DNA of 64,000 nucleotides, from IMG/VR virus record IMGVR_UViG_3300027747_001395. One strand, written 5' to 3'. The DNA comes from a virus. Taxonomy: Duplodnaviria > Heunggongvirae > Uroviricota > Caudoviricetes. The translations under genes and the position numbers were made by a program. This document shows, one piece after another, positions 39,378 to 61,690 of the stretch (its first letter is position 1; every line of letters starts with the position of its first letter). The notes beneath the pieces were generated by a model. The model saw only the letters and a list, made by a program, of their open reading frames with translations, did no database searches and had not been told where the DNA came from.

Positions 39378-39450
39378 CTTATGGTAGCTCATCGGTAGAG
39401 CATCTGACTTCAACTCAGACGGAACGGGTTCAATTCCCGTACAACAAACC
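39378..39450 (+). tRNA. tRNA-like element with anticodon loop cuUCAac (would read UGA); acceptor stem not evident
   Basis: D-arm gctc-atcggtag-agc. Anticodon stem tctga/tcaga. T-arm acggg-ttcaatt-cccgt. No paired acceptor, no CCA. Confidence 0.3.
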
Positions 39451-57250: not shown

Positions 57251-57278
57251 CGGTTCAACATATAATTAGGATTTGAAT

Positions 57279-58484
57279 ATGGCTATAATGTATGATATGT
57301 GCTACAAGGTTGATTCCAAGTCTAAGGTACGGATTTGGTATATTGAACAACAGGACGATAAGTATCGTACATGGGATGGAACACAAGGTGGAAAGATTAA
57401 GTGTTCTGAATGGCGGATAGCTTTTCCTACTAATCTTGGTCGGTCTAATGAACGTGATGGTTCTGCTCAAGCCGCATTTGAAATTGAAGCTCTCTATAAG
57501 AAGAAGTGTGAAAAGGATTATCATACTTCCATTGAGTCTGCTAAGACTGGTGGATCGCATATCTTTGAAGCTATGCTGGCTGAGAAGTATGATGCCAAGA
57601 ACTTTCAATCTGGTTTTGCTCAACCTAAGCTAGATGGCTTCCGTTGTATCGCAAATAAGGACGGATTATGGAGTCGTTCTGGAAAGCCATTTGTTTCCAG
57701 TCCTCATATTATGGAAGCTCTTGCTCCTCTCTTTGCCGAAGATCCTGATCTGATTTTTGATGGTGAACTTTACAACCATGAGCTTCGGGATAACTTCAAT
57801 GAGATTGCAAGCCTGATTGGTGTGAAGTCTGACAAGAAGCTGACGCCTGAGCACTATACCAAGACACGTGCGATGGTTCAATACCATATCTACGATGTGC
57901 CCTCTCATAGCGGTAACTTTGCCGAACGGGATGCGTATCTGGAGAGTCTTTTCTTGGATGAGGAAGATCCATGCCCTAAGTGTCTTCGTCTGGTTTCTAC
58001 TCAGGCTGTTTTCACTGCTGATAGTTTTGACCAGTGTCATGGCGAATGGCTTGAGGCTGGTTACGAAGGTTCCATGTGGCGTAACAATACAAAGTATGAG
58101 AATCGCCGGACTAAGAACCTTCTGAAGCGCAAGGATTTTCTTGACGAAGAGTTTGAGATGATCAAGACTGAGGAAGGTCAAGGTAACTGGGCTGGAGCGG
58201 CAAAATCTGTTTTCTTCAAGGTTCCAGGTGCCGCAATCAACTTTGGTGATTTGTTCTATAATCCTGGTAGTGATGAGATGCTACAGTACTCCTCAACTGT
58301 AGTTCCTTCTGAAGGCTCTGTCCGTGTCGCTAAGGCTGGAATCAAGGGATCTTATGAGCGAGGTGTAGAACTTCTTACTGAGACTCATAAGATTGTGACT
58401 ATCAAGTTCTTTGAACGAACTCCTGATGGTGTCCCTCGGTTTGGTGTAGCTACTATGTTCCACGGTTTGAAGCGAGAAATTTAA
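57279..58484 (+). CDS. ATP-dependent DNA ligase
   Basis: Motif I KLDGFR (KxDG). Motif IV EGSMWR. Motif V LLKRK. Confidence 0.7.
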   Translation: MAIMYDMCYKVDSKSKVRIWYIEQQDDKYRTWDGTQGGKIKCSEWRIAFPTNLGRSNERDGSAQAAFEIEALYKKKCEKDYHTSIESAKTGGSHIFEAMLAEKYDAKNFQSGFAQPKLDGFRCIANKDGLWSRSGKPFVSSPHIMEALAPLFAEDPDLIFDGELYNHELRDNFNEIASLIGVKSDKKLTPEHYTKTRAMVQYHIYDVPSHSGNFAERDAYLESLFLDEEDPCPKCLRLVSTQAVFTADSFDQCHGEWLEAGYEGSMWRNNTKYENRRTKNLLKRKDFLDEEFEMIKTEEGQGNWAGAAKSVFFKVPGAAINFGDLFYNPGSDEMLQYSSTVVPSEGSVRVAKAGIKGSYERGVELLTETHKIVTIKFFERTPDGVPRFGVATMFHGLKREI

Positions 58485-58870
58485 TGTATTTGACTTATAT
58501 TAAAACATTTAAAGAATGGCTAAGTGAGCGCTCATTTGGTTACTGGGTTGGTGTTTATGGTATCGTTGCTCTACTAACCTTTGGCTTTGCTTCAGTAGAA
58601 CATCATAATGAAAAGGCTAGACTTCAAGCTTTTAAAGATGCTCAATGTTCAACATTAGAAGATCGAGTTGCAACTGGTAAAGATTGCTATAGTTTAGATT
58701 TTGATAATGATCCTGATGGAATGGTCGGTCTTTTTTCTGGTGTGTTTTGGCCTCTTTACTGGACTAATAAGACATTTTCAGTTCTTATGCCAGGTCCACA
58801 AATGCCGACTGTCGTGACTAAAATAGTCATTCAGAAAGAATATATTTCAGAAGATGCAGAAACCGATTGA
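58484..58870 (+). CDS. Hypothetical membrane protein
   Basis: TAATG overlap with the ligase. N-terminal TM. Confidence 0.45.
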   Translation: MYLTYIKTFKEWLSERSFGYWVGVYGIVALLTFGFASVEHHNEKARLQAFKDAQCSTLEDRVATGKDCYSLDFDNDPDGMVGLFSGVFWPLYWTNKTFSVLMPGPQMPTVVTKIVIQKEYISEDAETD

Positions 58871-58918
58871 CATTTTTCTTATGGTATGGTAGACTAAACT
58901 ATAAGGAATGGAGATTGA
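58866..58918 (+). promoter_or_regulatory. Promoter-family repeat
   Basis: Consensus copy. Confidence 0.55.
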
Positions 58919-58920
58919 CA

Positions 58921-59067
58921 ATGTTTTCCGCCATCTCCACCAGTAGTTATGAGGCGCCGAAAGAGGCTAGATGTTGCTTACTCATAACTACTGATGGGGA
59001 TGAAACAGGCTCGATTTTCGTGAACTTCTTCATAAAAGACAATATAAATAAGATATTGGTTGCTTGA
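58921..59067 (+). CDS. Small ORF (48 aa) overlapping a duplicated structured element
   Basis: ATG after the leader. The body is the first copy of a 98-nt element repeated at 59106-59203, so it may be non-coding RNA instead. Confidence 0.3.
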   Translation: MFSAISTSSYEAPKEARCCLLITTDGDETGSIFVNFFIKDNINKILVA

Positions 59068-59105
59068 AAGCTGACAATAAAGACGGAAAGACGCGGGGGC
59101 AGTAC

Positions 59106-59203
59106 CCGCCATCTCCACCAGTAGTTATGAGGCGCCGAAAGAGGCTAGATGTTGCTTACTCATAACTACTGATGGGGATGAAACAGGCTCGATTTTCGTG
59201 GAA
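59106..59203 (+). repeat. Second copy of 98-nt direct repeat (first copy 58927-59024)
   Basis: Near-identical ccgccatctccaccagtagttatgaggcgccgaaagaggctagatgttgcttactcataactactgatggggatgaaacaggctcgattttcgtg. Contains a 13-bp inverted repeat cagtagttatgag/ctcataactactg. Confidence 0.7.
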
Positions 59204-59709
59204 TAGGGATATTGCTTAGACTGATTCGGTGGCTGAGCGGCCAAAACAAACTAAATGTCGCATCTAATGATAACGATATTGTTGATTACGCACTAGCTGC
59301 CTAATTTAACATGGGTTTGGTGGGTACCTTGAAACAGAAACCCACCACTTAGATGAGTGCTGGTCTTGATCGGCAAATAAGCAGGAAGAGGAGAGCGCAC
59401 CTCTCCGATGGATATCCGACATTAGATCGGCAAACTCGACCCAACCAGCATTCTTCTAAGTTCTATTTTGTCTATCTACTAAGTAAGCCCTTCTCTTAGG
59501 GGGAGCCGAAAGGTCCTAGACAACGGGTTCGGTGGTACCTTTGAACAGAAATCCACCACTTAGATGAATCCATTGGTTACCATGGTCGGAGCTGAACATG
59601 GTGTAATTTAGTTCTCCGAAATTCCAGTGGGTTCATCTAAGTTTGTGTATAAATAGTCTGTCCACTGTCTCAGGACTAAGGACTGATACACATACACAAA
59701 GGAATTACT

Positions 59710-59925
59710 ATGTCACTAGATACCCCATATCTCCTACGCATGGAGATGATCAAACTAGCTCAACAGAGAGCTTCAGAAAAGTTTCACGTAGAGTGGCAAA
59801 CTGCTACCGAAAAGGCAAGAATCAATGAAAGTGCTCAGTTTTTGGTTGAGGTCCCACCTTATCCTACTGGTGATAGCATTATTGAAGAGGCAAAAAAGTT
59901 TAAATCTTTTGTAGATAAAGGTTGA
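59710..59925 (+). CDS. Hypothetical protein
   Basis: RBS acaaaggaattactATG. TATAAATA element upstream. 71 aa. Confidence 0.45.
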   Translation: MSLDTPYLLRMEMIKLAQQRASEKFHVEWQTATEKARINESAQFLVEVPPYPTGDSIIEEAKKFKSFVDKG

Positions 59926-59960
59926 CATTTTAAAGTAAATGATTATATTAAACTAATAAG
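59922..59960 (+). promoter_or_regulatory. Promoter-family repeat driving a non-coding transcript
   Basis: TTGACAttttaaagtaaatgATTATAT. No ORF follows. Confidence 0.45.
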
Positions 59961-60286
59961 GGATGGTTACTGCAAACCGACTCAAGCCTTCGGGCGCATA
60001 TGTACCTTCGGGTACTCTCGATGTTAAATCCGGTCACTGAGCGCTTCGGCGACTCATGCTATTAACAACGGCCTGGCGGACCAGGAGTAGGTGTCCTACC
60101 CGAATGTAGGAATAGGGCTTCTCCGAATAGAAGAAGAGGTAAAAATCCGAATTCAAATAACATCCCGTTGAAATTTAGGTAAGTTACAGCCACTCGCAAA
60201 ACTTTTAAAAAGGCTTCGGCCAGGACGATTTTCGATTTTGTACGTCTGGAAATAATACAAAGTAGGCAACTTACCTGTTATCTTAT
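59960..60286 (+). ncRNA. Candidate structured ncRNA / long tRNA leader with four C(UUCG)G hairpins
   Basis: gccTTCGggc, gtaccTTCGggtac, gagcgcTTCGgcgactc, ggcTTCGgcc. No ORF above 30 codons. Confidence 0.4.
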
Positions 60287-60364
60287 GCTTTGTTAGCTCA
60301 GTGGTCAAGAGCGGTGATCTCTAAAATCATGCCGTCGGGGGTTCAAATCCCCCACAAAGCACCA
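60287..60364 (+). tRNA. Suppressor tRNA (anticodon CTA, reads amber UAG), Gln-like
   Basis: Perfect acceptor gctttgt/acaaagc plus CCA. D gctc/gagc. Anticodon stem gtgat/atcat, loop ctCTAaa (cf. tRNA-Gln loop ctCTGaa). T-arm ggggg-ttcaaat-ccccc. Confidence 0.65.
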
Positions 60365-61300: not shown

Positions 61301-61690
61301 TGGGTTGTCTACAGCATTATTTTTATGGAATCGGTAAAGCGTGGTGTTCGAATCCCACCGCCCACACCATCATTCATTACCTCTTTGGCGGACGCAGGTC
61401 GGAAGTGGCATTCTCGGTTACACGTAAGTGATCATAACGGTGACTGTGGTCTGTGATAAGGTCTCCTAGATCAGGGAGATACCTCACGTAATGAATGTTG
61501 ATGTGGGTGTAGCCCAGTGGTAGAGGCAACCGACAAAATGTACAACCCGTTGAAATATGAGATTAGAATGTATTATTTTTGGTTAGGTTTTGATACTGAA
61601 TTCTTTCACGAGATTGAAGCTCAGTGGAAACGTGAAGAGAAATGGGAAGGCGACTTTACTCGCCTTTGGTAAGAGATAAAAAGGTTTTTA
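61300..61690 (+). ncRNA. Candidate ncRNA containing tRNA 3'-half, 10-bp inverted repeat, and tRNA 5'-half (permuted order)
   Basis: T-arm plus acceptor-3' plus CCA at about 61337-61370. cattcattac/gtaatgaatg stems at 61372 and 61479. tRNA-like 5' half gtgggtg-ta-gccc-agtggtaga-ggc at about 61505-61545. Confidence 0.35.

What the first reader, a model, noticed from the sequence alone, without database searches (positions are those of the whole stretch)
58921..59700. 98-nt element duplicated (58927-59024 and 59106-59203) followed by a repeat-rich structured non-coding region
The first copy sits right after a family promoter and was called as a 48-aa ORF. The same 98 nt recur 80 nt downstream without a start codon. 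Each copy contains a 13-bp perfect inverted repeat. That favours an RNA element, such as a ribozyme, riboregulator or processing site, over a protein. Beyond it, 59230-59700 is ORF-poor. It carries a second pair of about 60-nt direct repeats (59313-59372 and 59525-59585: ggtgg(g)tacctttgaacagaaa(c/t)ccaccacttagatga, each a ggtggg/cccacc hairpin). It also has a ggagag-cgcac-ctctcc hairpin and a CGAAAG loop. A TATAAATA box at 59648 precedes the next gene.
Basis: seen in the sequence. Interest (0 to 1): 0.6.

Follow-up and report, generated by a model that had tools for sequence, protein, structure and literature searches.

The report
Phage two-piece tmRNA gene with duplications
The "structured non-coding region" is a phage copy of the ribosome-rescue RNA tmRNA in its split, circularly permuted gene form. 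The 98-nt "element" is the part of that gene holding the acceptor stem and the spacer that is cut out, copied once more upstream in this phage lineage only.

Summary
A 95-nt exact direct repeat lies at 58928-59022 and 59106-59200, and a second, about 45-nt diverged repeat lies at 59313-59356 and 59525-59567.

The region is a known kind of gene, an alphaproteobacterial-type circularly permuted (two-piece) tmRNA (ssrA). It scores 89.8 bits on Rfam RF01849 (cut-off 50) and 75.3 bits on RF04321 (cut-off 47). Repeat copy 2 runs from inside the T stem to helix P2a. It holds the 3' acceptor strand with ACCA, the 53-nt intervening hairpin that is excised, and the 5' acceptor strand. The tag reads ASNDNDIVDYALAA*.

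Eleven related T4-like phage loci carry one such gene at the same place. The stems covary, and G3:U is invariant. None of the eleven has copy 1, and neither do any of 240 other tmRNA loci.

Copy 1 sits with a promoter/SD/ATG cassette inside the old tmRNA promoter. Its 48-aa ORF has no homologue. The second repeat pair comes from two alleles of the tmRNA 3' end and its following long hairpin, joined in tandem.

My verdict is an ordinary phage tmRNA with lineage-specific recombination scars. One open oddity remains: copy 1 plus the acceptor piece recreates a standard-order, tag-less tRNA-like domain.

The parts
58867..58923 (+). Family promoter and leader cassette. It holds -35 TTGACA (58867-72), -10 TAGACT (58890-95), SD GGAG (58910-13) and ATG (58921-23). 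The stop codon of upstream ORF128 (58868-70) lies inside the -35.
   Evidence: At least 15 near-identical cassettes in the window each end in the ATG of a protein gene. The promoter scan matches 10 of 12 positions. Relatives L332 and L338 have the tmRNA promoter directly at this place instead.
58928..59022 (+). R1, a partial extra copy of the tmRNA module. It holds 4 nt of the T-stem 3' strand, acceptor 3' strand CAUCUCC (58932-38), ACCA (58939-42), the intervening hairpin (58943-95), acceptor 5' strand GGGGAUG (58996-59002), the D-loop region and the P2a 5' strand. It lacks the T-arm 5' half and the P2 3' strand.
   Evidence: It is 100% identical to 59106-59200. It is absent from 11 related loci and from 240 other tmRNA loci.
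58921..59067 (+). 48-aa ORF that reads through R1. It is most likely an accidental ORF created by fusing the cassette ATG to RNA-gene sequence.
   Evidence: ORF list. No homologue in the protein database. No Pfam or PHROG hit.
59020..59050 (+). Remnant of the original tmRNA promoter. The -35 is now GTGAAC. The -10 region is a perfect TATAAATA (59043-59050), the T4-type late-promoter consensus.
   Evidence: It aligns with TTGACA-N17-TATATAT of L082, L087 and L332. TATAAATA match.
59052..59120 (+). tmRNA acceptor piece. It holds a 5' hairpin, P2 3' strands (CAAUA 59075-79; ACGGAAA 59083-89), the T arm (59093-59109, loop GGCAGUA), acceptor 3' strand CAUCUCC (59110-16) and ACCA (59117-20).
   Evidence: Rfam alignments. 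Covariation counts: T stem and acceptor stem are 100% paired in 7 sequences.
59121..59173 (+). Intervening segment of the permuted gene. It is a hairpin that extends the acceptor stem and is removed on maturation. It lies inside R2, the second repeat copy (59106-59200).
   Evidence: It is an insert between the acceptor strands in both Rfam alignments. Relatives have hairpins of 11 to about 150 nt at the same place with unrelated interiors.
59174..59349 (+). tmRNA coding piece. It holds acceptor 5' strand GGGGAUG (G3 pairs with U), the D-loop region, P2, the PK1 region, the tag ORF and the 3'-terminal hairpin E_A (59319-59346) followed by ACU.
   Evidence: RF01849 89.8 bits and RF04321 75.3 bits. 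Alignment with 6 relatives. Covariation.
59260..59304 (+). Tag reading frame. The resume codon GCA is preceded by GUC. It reads ASNDNDIVDYALAA and ends in the stop UAA.
   Evidence: Read from the sequence. It is aligned to the tag region of both Rfam models. ARAGORN tags of relatives are ANDNNAYGAFALAA and ANDNDAYGAFALAA.
59347..59461 (+). H2, a long hairpin (17 pairs in the outer stem) that starts at the last bases of the tmRNA. It includes the GGAGAG/CUCUCC inner hairpin.
   Evidence: About 90% identical to L087 2310-2425, with 3 compensatory pairs.
59462..59530 (+). Junction relic. It holds a decayed late promoter (TCTATCTA 59472-79, against TATAAATA in L087), a relic of the 5'-UTR hairpin (GCCCUUCUCUUAGGGGG) and then sequence like the post-tag part of a tmRNA (CCUAGACAACGGGUUCGG).
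   Evidence: Alignments with L087, L082 and L001. The same junction is 100% identical in an independent contig, L083.
59531..59557 (+). E_B, a second copy of the tmRNA 3'-terminal hairpin. It sits at the position syntenic with E of L001, L082 and L332.
59558..59642 (+). H1, a long hairpin (19-bp outer stem plus a 7-bp inner stem). It is the allele found in L001, L082, L332 and L338.
   Evidence: Inverted repeat I5. Consensus fold of 5 sequences, -32.4 kcal/mol.
59648..59655 (+). TATAAATA, a T4-type late promoter for the conserved 71-aa gene (59710-59925).
   Evidence: A box with at most one mismatch precedes the same gene in L001, L082, L085, L087, L088 and L332 and in one of the L338/L339 pair, while L338 itself reads TATACATA.

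Best explanation
Window 59052-59349 is a functional phage-borne ssrA gene of the alphaproteobacterial, circularly permuted kind.

How it works. The steps in this paragraph are inferred from what is established for two-piece tmRNA in Caulobacter; none was tested here. One precursor is transcribed. The acceptor piece ends in ...CAUCUCC-ACCA at 59120. The 53-nt intervening hairpin (59121-59173) is cut out by tRNA-end processing enzymes, with RNase P cutting 5' of G59174. The coding piece starts with GGGGAUG and pairs back to the acceptor piece to form an alanine-accepting tRNA-like domain (G3:U70, A73, CCA). With the host's SmpB it enters stalled ribosomes and adds (A)ASNDNDIVDYALAA, a degradation tag.

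The first repeat. The '98-nt element' is the contiguous module holding the T-stem end, the 3' acceptor strand, the intervening hairpin, the 5' acceptor strand and P2a. In a permuted gene this module carries both strands of the acceptor stem. Copy 2 is the working one.

Copy 1 is a recent, lineage-specific duplicate. Together with the 3' part of a promoter/SD/ATG cassette, it was inserted between the -35 and the spacer of the original tmRNA promoter. It lacks half of the T arm and cannot make an acceptor piece. I regard it as a recombination scar that now forms a hairpin in a long 5' leader, and its 48-aa ORF as accidental.

The second repeat. The second repeat pair and the 'repeat-rich' tail arose when an L087-like allele (tmRNA end E, hairpin H2, late promoter) was joined out of register to an L082-like allele (post-tag, E, hairpin H1, late promoter). 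The upstream late promoter has since decayed. By inference, H1 and H2 are 17-19-bp stems that mark or process the 3' end of the tmRNA and insulate it from the late transcript of the 71-aa gene.
For: Identity of the gene.
- Two Rfam models score above their curated cut-offs, with full-length alignments.
- Eleven related loci (L001, L037, L082, L085, L087, L088, L090, L332, L338, L340, L342) carry a single tmRNA in this neighbourhood, upstream of the 71-aa gene in all but the distant L037; a DnaJ-like gene intervenes in L088.
- 15 of 25 stem pairs change on both sides and 93.7% of cells are paired, against 42-57% when the partners are slid. The G3:U pair is invariant in 7 of 7 sequences.
- The tag frame ends in ALAA-UAA.

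Copy 1 is lineage-specific.
- No internal repeat was found in any relative.
- 0 of 240 loci with the same T arm (120 genomes, 120 viral contigs) duplicate this module.
- In L332 and L338 the ORF128 homologue runs straight into TTGACA-N17-TATATA and then the tmRNA.
- In the window the same -35 is followed by the family cassette, then R1, then the homologous promoter spacer and -10.
- The ORF has no homologue.

The tail.
- H2 matches L087 and H1 matches L001, L082 and L332.
- The junction is reproduced 100% in L083, a contig from another sample that is only 88% identical further downstream.

Published background. Phage two-piece tmRNAs are documented (PMC9004378), and 79 phage tmRNAs are in the 2025 database (PMC11915505).
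Against: - No expression or processing data exist for this locus.
- The 100% identity of R1 and R2 contrasts with about 85% for E_A and E_B. It needs either a very recent event or gene conversion, and it also fits selection on R1.
- A 95-nt direct repeat 178 nt apart should be lost quickly in a recombination-proficient T4-like phage. Its presence could mean it is maintained. Against that, the deletion product would lose the acceptor piece, so selection on the tmRNA would remove such deletions.
- The cassette gives R1 a canonical translation start, so translation of the ORF cannot be excluded.
- The order and number of recombination events cannot be reconstructed from one genome.
- No other contig covering R1-S-R2 was found, so the duplication rests on a single assembly.
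Confidence: 0.75

Rival explanations
1. The locus has two outputs. On the long transcript from the cassette promoter, the 3' arm of R1 (GGGGAUG at 58996) pairs with the 5' arm of R2 (CAUCUCC-ACCA at 59110-59120) instead of with its own partner. RNase P and 3' trimming would then release a 125-nt one-piece, tag-less tRNA-like domain (58996-59120). This 'mini-tmRNA' could compete for SmpB, AlaRS or stalled ribosomes and so tune or inhibit trans-translation. The short transcript from TATAAATA at 59043 would make the normal two-piece tmRNA.
For: - 58996-59120 folds on its own into a textbook tRNA-like domain: a 7-bp acceptor stem with G3:U, a 12-nt D-like loop, a 7-bp P2a, a T arm and ACCA, at -28.9 kcal/mol.
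- In the full precursor the crossed pairing is as stable as the local one, -149.0 against -147.7 kcal/mol. The centroid structure shows the crossed form.
- Tag-less tRNA-like-domain tmRNAs exist: mycobacteriophage DS6A, whose form inhibits tmRNA in E. coli (PMC4131195, PMC11915505), and jakobid mitochondria, including a reverted non-permuted gene in Jakoba libera (PMC3590771).
- R1 and R2 are 100% identical.
Against: - R1 is seen in one genome only. 0 of 11 relatives and 0 of 240 other loci have it.
- Co-transcriptional folding should favour the local R1 hairpin, because it is complete before R2 is made.
- Rfam gives only truncated permuted-model hits on 58990-59122 and no one-piece model is reported. 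ARAGORN calls nothing there.
- Making an inhibitor and the full tmRNA from one locus has no evident logic.
Confidence: 0.1
2. R1 is kept as a processing and stability element. It is an exact copy of the hairpin that the cell's enzymes already cut in R2. Placed in the leader, it lets the same enzymes sever the mRNA-like cassette leader from the tmRNA precursor, or it protects the 5' end.
For: - The hairpin is very stable, -37 kcal/mol with z = -4.1.
- In relatives the acceptor piece starts at the primary 5' end a few bases after the -10. In the window, a transcript from the cassette promoter would need an extra cut.
- The predicted leader fold pairs the SD region with the R1 D/P2a segment.
Against: - RNase P needs the T arm stacked on the acceptor stem, and R1 lacks it.
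- There is no conservation in relatives.
- The TATAAATA at 59043 could supply the normal 5' end without any such device.
Confidence: 0.08
3. The 48-aa ORF (58921-59067) is a real small protein gene, and copy 2 is its untranslated duplicate.
For: It has the same promoter, SD and ATG cassette as at least 15 protein genes of the window, and it is an open frame of 48 codons.
Against: - It has no homologue in 5.8 billion clusters and no Pfam or PHROG family.
- 95 of its 144 coding bases are verbatim tmRNA sequence, whose counterpart in relatives is constrained as RNA.
- Relatives have no ORF there.
Confidence: 0.03
4. The duplication is an assembly artefact of a metagenomic contig that mixes strains.
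For: - No second contig spanning R1-S-R2 was found.
- The identical-ORF128 Logan contig L331 stops inside the cassette.
- The locus is a mosaic of alleles.
Against: - Both R1 junctions (cassette to R1, and R1 to the old promoter) are unique sequences that need real reads.
- Assemblers collapse repeats, they do not create them.
- The other duplication (H2, relic, E_B, H1) is reproduced exactly in an independent sample (L083).
- L331 ends where a 32-nt exact cassette repeat ends, as expected for a k=31 assembly.
Confidence: 0.04

Closest known systems
Alphaproteobacterial two-piece (circularly permuted) tmRNA, Rfam RF01849 and RF04321. The Caulobacter crescentus ssrA is the studied example.
   Same: - Gene order: acceptor piece, then intervening segment, then coding piece.
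- T loop GGCAGUA, close to the alpha consensus GGCgGUA.
- G3:U70, A73 and an encoded CCA.
- Tag ...YALAA.
- 3'-terminal hairpin GGUGGG...CCCACC-ACU, like the model's end.
   Different: - It is carried by a large T4-like phage, not a bacterium.
- The region between the stop codon and the 3' hairpin is shorter than in the model.
- It is followed by a long 17-19-bp hairpin.
- It carries an extra upstream partial copy.
Two-piece tmRNA genes of marine T4-like phages (Melnitz, pelagimyophages; Buchholz et al. 2022, PMC9004378)
   Same: A T4-like myophage carries an alpha-type permuted ssrA behind an early-type promoter, close to tRNA genes. The proposed roles there are keeping the hijacked translation apparatus running or tagging proteins.
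   Different: No glutamine riboswitch was detected here (Rfam). There is no detectable DNA similarity to any deposited phage. ARAGORN, the tool used in that survey, misses this gene and four of its relatives.
Tag-less tRNA-like-domain tmRNAs: mycobacteriophage DS6A, jakobid mitochondrial tmRNA, and the reverted non-permuted Jakoba libera gene (PMC4131195, PMC11915505, PMC3590771)
   Same: The stretch 58996-59120 has standard gene order, folds as a tRNA-like domain without a tag frame, and lies in a phage.
   Different: Here it overlaps a complete permuted gene and shares the gene's acceptor piece. It exists through a partial duplication in one genome. There is no evidence that it is made.
Displaced tmRNA or tRNA gene fragments next to a regenerated gene after integration of genomic islands (Islander, PMC4383910)
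   Same: An intact gene is flanked by partial copies of itself.
   Different: There is no integrase and no island. The copies lie 83 and about 165 nt from their partners. The fragments are at both ends and come from different alleles. This fits unequal or homologous recombination between co-infecting phages and not site-specific integration.
Mobile promoter cassettes of T4-type phages (promoter-early stem-loop elements, PeSLs). This comparison is from my own knowledge of Arbiol et al. 2010; the paper was not read here.
   Same: Many near-identical promoter-leader cassettes flank small genes in a plastic region, and one of them sits at a rearrangement junction.
   Different: The cassette here is promoter plus SD plus ATG, without the stem-loop that defines PeSLs. 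Its role in the insertion is an inference.

Membership tests
Permuted (two-piece) tmRNA, alpha type (RF01849 / RF04321) | Covariance-model score above the curated gathering cut-off over the full model | tested here: met
   RF01849 scores 89.8 bits (cut-off 50) over model positions 1-355. RF04321 scores 75.3 bits (cut-off 47) over positions 1-213.
Permuted (two-piece) tmRNA, alpha type (RF01849 / RF04321) | Permuted order: the T arm, 3' acceptor strand and CCA lie upstream of the 5' acceptor strand, D-loop region and tag frame, separated by an intervening segment | tested here: met
   T arm 59093-59109, CAUCUCC-ACCA 59110-59120, intervening segment 59121-59173, GGGGAUG 59174-59180, tag 59260-59304.
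Permuted (two-piece) tmRNA, alpha type (RF01849 / RF04321) | tRNA-Ala identity set: G3:U70 pair, discriminator A73 and 3' CCA | tested here: met
   G59176 pairs with U59114. The A of ACCA follows the stem. The G:U pair is invariant in 7 of 7 related sequences.
Permuted (two-piece) tmRNA, alpha type (RF01849 / RF04321) | Short tag reading frame without SD or AUG, ending in a hydrophobic ...LAA followed by a stop | tested here: met
   GCA UCU AAU GAU AAC GAU AUU GUU GAU UAC GCA CUA GCU GCC UAA gives ASNDNDIVDYALAA*. Relatives have ANDN...ALAA tags.
Permuted (two-piece) tmRNA, alpha type (RF01849 / RF04321) | Stems supported by compensatory change in homologues | tested here: met
   15 of 25 pairs change on both sides. 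0 of 500 shuffles reach any of the five measures. Slid controls give 42-57% of cells paired, against 93.7% observed.
Permuted (two-piece) tmRNA, alpha type (RF01849 / RF04321) | Precursor cleaved into two RNAs that stay paired, charged with alanine, and acting with SmpB | not testable with these tools
   This needs a northern blot or RNA-seq and biochemistry. Whether the phage encodes SmpB was not examined.
Tag-less one-piece tmRNA (tRNA-like domain only, as in phage DS6A) | Standard-order tRNA-like domain (5' acceptor strand, P2, T arm, 3' acceptor strand, CCA) without a tag frame | tested here: inconclusive
   58996-59120 folds this way at -28.9 kcal/mol, and the pairing is isoenergetic with the local one in the precursor. 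However, no one-piece Rfam model is reported on it and ARAGORN calls nothing there.
Tag-less one-piece tmRNA (tRNA-like domain only, as in phage DS6A) | Exists as a separate expressed RNA, conserved in relatives | tested here: not met
   Conservation fails: R1 is absent from 11 related loci and from 240 other loci. Expression is not testable here.
Small protein gene (the 48-aa ORF) | Homologues conserved at protein level | tested here: not met
   No candidate in 5.8 billion clusters. No Pfam or PHROG hit.
Genomic-island att duplication at a tmRNA gene | Integrase-bearing island between the regenerated gene and its displaced fragment | tested here: not met
   Only 83 nt and about 165 nt lie between the repeat copies, and there is no ORF above 48 aa in between.

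The most novel reading that the evidence does not exclude
The R1-S-R2 arrangement is a live intermediate of tmRNA gene (re)permutation. A partial tandem duplication of a permuted gene has recreated, inside the same transcript, a standard-order tag-less tRNA-like domain (58996-59120) that shares its acceptor piece with the two-piece tmRNA. Alternative pairing of two identical hairpin arms would then decide whether a transcript yields a rescue-and-tag tmRNA or a tag-less mini-tmRNA that competes for SmpB. Translation of the 48-aa leader ORF through R1 might set the choice. That would give the phage a switch on host trans-translation.
Probability: 0.07. Interest if true: 0.65.

Novelty: new member of a known kind. 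Interest (0 to 1): 0.3.

Why it matters
The finding turns an 'unknown structured RNA region' into an annotated gene, a phage tmRNA that the standard tool (ARAGORN) misses here and in four of seven relatives tested. Surveys of phage tmRNAs based on that tool therefore undercount this group.

The comparison also shows that in permuted tmRNA genes both acceptor strands and the spacer form one contiguous module. That module is swapped as a unit between phage alleles, and the locus is a mosaic.

The extra copy is a rare natural example of the partial tandem duplication that is assumed to underlie circular permutation of RNA genes and its reversal. If the duplicate were expressed, it would give a tag-less mini-tmRNA. 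There is no evidence for that yet.

Tried and rejected
- Deposited phages. Megablast and blastn of the region against 50,697 phage records gave no match.
- IMG/VR scans. Exact scans for the R allele (GGGGATGAAACAGGCTCGA, and CAGTACCCGCCATCTCCACCAGTAG) gave nothing. The H1 hairpin pattern found only L001's own contig.
- Protein search with the 48-aa ORF gave nothing. My first attempt used wrong coordinates.
- Origin of the R allele or the host. None was close outside the T arm, so no host call is made.
- Independent contigs spanning R1-S-R2. L331 (identical ORF128) ends inside the cassette, and L083 starts at 59434.
- One-piece tmRNA models on 58990-59122 gave only truncated permuted hits.
- GIY-YIG reading of the L001 gene upstream of its tmRNA. 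Pfam gave nothing and PHROGs only a weak 'homing endonuclease' match at E 9e-6, so I make no claim.
- A single tandem duplication of the whole gene cannot explain the layout. It would need three copies, so at least two separate events are required.
- Island integration is rejected because there is no room for an island.
- Two classic papers (Keiler 2000; Sharkady and Williams 2004) are not held in the library. What I say about them is from my own knowledge.
Full report
**1. The observation**

- The window holds an exact 95-nt direct repeat, 58928-59022 and 59106-59200 (blastn E 6e-45).
- Each copy contains a 22-nt inverted repeat, including the 13-bp perfect one. As RNA it folds at -37.2 kcal/mol, z = -4.1.
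- A second, diverged repeat lies at about 59313-59356 and 59525-59567 (81-89% identity).
- The small hairpins and the TATAAATA at 59648 are present.
- No ORF longer than 48 aa lies in 59230-59700.

**2. What it is**

Rfam finds a full-length alphaproteobacterial tmRNA at 59025-59349 (RF01849, 89.8 bits, cut-off 50). It also finds a permuted tmRNA at 59069-59304 (RF04321, 75.3 bits, cut-off 47). The alignments give this anatomy:

| Part | Coordinates |
|---|---|
| Acceptor piece | about 59052-59120 |
| T arm | 59093-59109 |
| CAUCUCC-ACCA | 59110-59120 |
| Intervening hairpin | 59121-59173 |
| Coding piece, starting GGGGAUG | from 59174 |
| Tag frame | 59260-59304 |
| Terminal hairpin GGUGGG...CCCACC-ACU | ends at 59349 |

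G59176 pairs with U59114, which is the G3:U70 alanine identity pair. The tag frame reads GCA UCU AAU GAU AAC GAU AUU GUU GAU UAC GCA CUA GCU GCC UAA, that is ASNDNDIVDYALAA*.

It contains both acceptor strands and the spacer that is removed on maturation. ARAGORN does not call this gene, which explains why the region looked empty.

**3. Relatives**

- The neighbouring ATP-dependent ligase (57273-58484) is closest to ligases of phages of Alphaproteobacteria: Caulobacter Cr30 at 42%, then Rhodobacter and Ruegeria phages.
- Through the ligase, the conserved 71-aa gene downstream (59710-59925) and ORF128 upstream (58484-58870), I fetched 11 distinct related loci.
- One relative (L088) carries T4 gp59 and gp33 homologues nearby. 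The window itself encodes RNR and NAD-salvage genes. Together these point to a large T4-like phage.
- Every relative has one permuted tmRNA in this neighbourhood, directly upstream of the 71-aa gene in most. In L088 a DnaJ-like gene lies between them, and the more distant ligase-linked L037 has no 71-aa gene nearby.
- In an alignment of seven of these genes, the P2a, T, acceptor and terminal stems are 93.7% paired. 15 of 25 pairs change on both sides, and no shuffle or slid control comes close. The G:U pair never varies. The gene is real and under RNA-level constraint.
- The intervening segments range from 11 nt (L001) to about 150 nt (L037). Their interiors are unrelated, but each has a stem that extends the acceptor stem.
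- L087 has the same acceptor stem as the window. L082 shares the flanks almost exactly but has a different acceptor stem and spacer.
- The PK1 region of the window matches L082 and its tag end matches L090. The alleles are therefore mosaics, and the acceptor/spacer module moves as one block.

**4. Copy 1**

- No relative has an internal repeat (by eye).
- Among 240 further loci with the same T-arm pattern (120 bacterial genomes, 120 viral contigs), none duplicates this module.
- In L332 and L338 the ORF128 homologue ends inside TTGACA of the tmRNA promoter, and the tmRNA follows at once.
- In the window the same TTGACA (58867) is followed by the 3' part of a promoter/5'-UTR/SD/ATG cassette. 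That cassette occurs at least 15 times in the window in front of protein genes.
- After the cassette come four T's, then R1, then sequence homologous to the spacer and -10 of the relatives' tmRNA promoter (GTGAAC-N17-TATAAATA, 59020-59050).
- About 150 nt (cassette tail plus R1) were therefore inserted into the old promoter.
- R1 has only 4 nt of the T stem and no P2 3' strand, so it cannot supply an acceptor piece.
- The 48-aa ORF is the cassette's ATG reading into RNA-gene sequence. It has no homologue in 5.8 billion protein clusters and no Pfam or PHROG family.
- The remaining TATAAATA equals the T4 late-promoter consensus and sits where relatives have their -10. A short transcript with the normal 5' end is therefore still possible. 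This is an inference.

**5. The tail**

- In L001, L082, L332 and L338 the tmRNA terminal hairpin (E) is followed directly by a long hairpin H1 (19-bp stem ACUUAGAUGAAUCCAUUGG / CCAGUGGGUUCAUCUAAGU). A TATAAATA and the 71-aa gene come next.
- L087 has another allele, H2, with the same outer stem and a different interior. L085 has a third allele.
- The window has both alleles in tandem, in this order:
  - E_A and H2 (59319-59461).
  - A decayed late promoter (TCTATCTA), a relic of the 5'-UTR hairpin, and post-tag-like sequence.
  - E_B and H1 (59531-59642).
  - The working TATAAATA.
- This is what an out-of-register crossover between an H2-type and an H1-type genome would give.
- The junction is 100% identical in L083, a contig from another sample that is only 88% identical 300 nt further on. 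The arrangement is therefore real and shared by more than one genotype.
- What H does is inferred. It is a 17-19-bp stem that starts at the last bases of the tmRNA. It would suit 3'-end definition or double-strand-specific cleavage, and insulation from the late transcript.
- In L088 the E hairpin is followed by a U run and looks like a plain terminator.

**6. Mechanism and rivals**

The best reading is an ordinary two-piece tmRNA working with host SmpB, plus two lineage-specific recombination scars (confidence 0.75).

The main open point is that R1 and R2 are identical while E_A and E_B are not. In addition, R1's 3' arm can pair with R2's 5' arm. That pairing is as stable as the local one (-149.0 against -147.7 kcal/mol). 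It encloses a 125-nt RNA (58996-59120) that folds by itself into a complete tag-less tRNA-like domain.

Such molecules exist. The form in phage DS6A inhibits tmRNA in E. coli, and the Jakoba libera mitochondrial tmRNA gene reverted to a non-permuted order (PMC4131195, PMC11915505, PMC3590771).

Against this reading:
- R1 occurs in one genome only.
- Co-transcriptional folding favours the local hairpin.
- No model or tool recognises the one-piece form.

I give the dual-output reading about 0.1, a leader-processing role 0.08, a real protein 0.03 and an assembly artefact 0.04.

**7. Comparison with what is known, and novelty**

Phage two-piece tmRNAs are documented. Buchholz et al. counted 53 among 18,146 phage genomes, mostly aquatic and including T4-like phages of SAR11 and OM43 (PMC9004378). 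The 2025 tmRNA database lists 79 phage sequences and 11,946 permuted ones (PMC11915505).

The gene is therefore a new member of a known kind. It has no detectable DNA similarity to any deposited phage. The partial duplication is unusual but, on present evidence, incidental.

Interest is 0.3. The result is a useful annotation and a neat evolutionary snapshot, and a specialist would not find it surprising.

Noticed in passing
window 59922-60286 (+): A second promoter (TTGACA-16-TATATT, 59922-59949) drives a conserved structured RNA of about 240-330 nt just upstream of tRNA(CUA). It has a closing helix GGGAUG/CAUCCC and about seven hairpins, four of them with cUUCGg loops. It has no Rfam match at E<=1. 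It is conserved in L338/L084 (93%), L083 (88%), L296 (73%) and L085 (75%). 12 of 40 predicted pairs show compensatory change. It may be an undescribed phage ncRNA.
   Followed up: partly
window 60287-60364 and 39379-39450 (+): Suppressor-type tRNAs with anticodon CUA (amber) and UCA (opal) lie among 27 tRNA genes. The CUA tRNA is also present in relatives L085 and L087, and L083 has a tRNA hit at the matching position (anticodon not checked). This may hint at stop-codon reassignment or suppression in this phage group.
   Followed up: no
window, at least 15 sites, e.g. 25861, 26453, 27384, 38720, 43732, 44767, 45330, 50137, 55859, 58860: There is a family of near-identical cassettes, TTGACATTTTT-N-TGGTAGACTAAACTATAAGGAATGGAGATTGACATG (promoter, leader, SD and start codon). 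The stop codon of the upstream gene often lies inside the -35. These cassettes are likely substrates for the recombination that shuffles this region.
   Followed up: partly
L003:253-712 and L008:11509-11932: GOLLD RNA (RF02032, 156-159 bits, cut-off 150) is present in two large viral contigs that share the ligase family.
   Followed up: no
L001:1422-2051: In relative L001, the slot that holds ORF128 in the window is occupied by a 209-aa ORF. It has a weak PHROG match to homing endonucleases (phrog_314, E 9e-6) and no Pfam hit. This is consistent with the locus being a recombination hot spot.
   Followed up: partly
L001:3931-5346 and window about 61340-61430: The 471-aa ORF in L001 looks like a Ro60/TROVE-vWA protein by eye. 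It is preceded by a non-coding stretch that is conserved with the window (similar spurious ORF translations). This could be a Y-RNA-like partner. It was not tested.
   Followed up: no
window, L082, L087, L088, L090: ARAGORN fails to call the permuted tmRNA in the window and in four of seven relatives, all of which pass both Rfam models (against 4, 26, 38). Surveys of phage tmRNAs that use ARAGORN alone undercount this group.
   Followed up: yes
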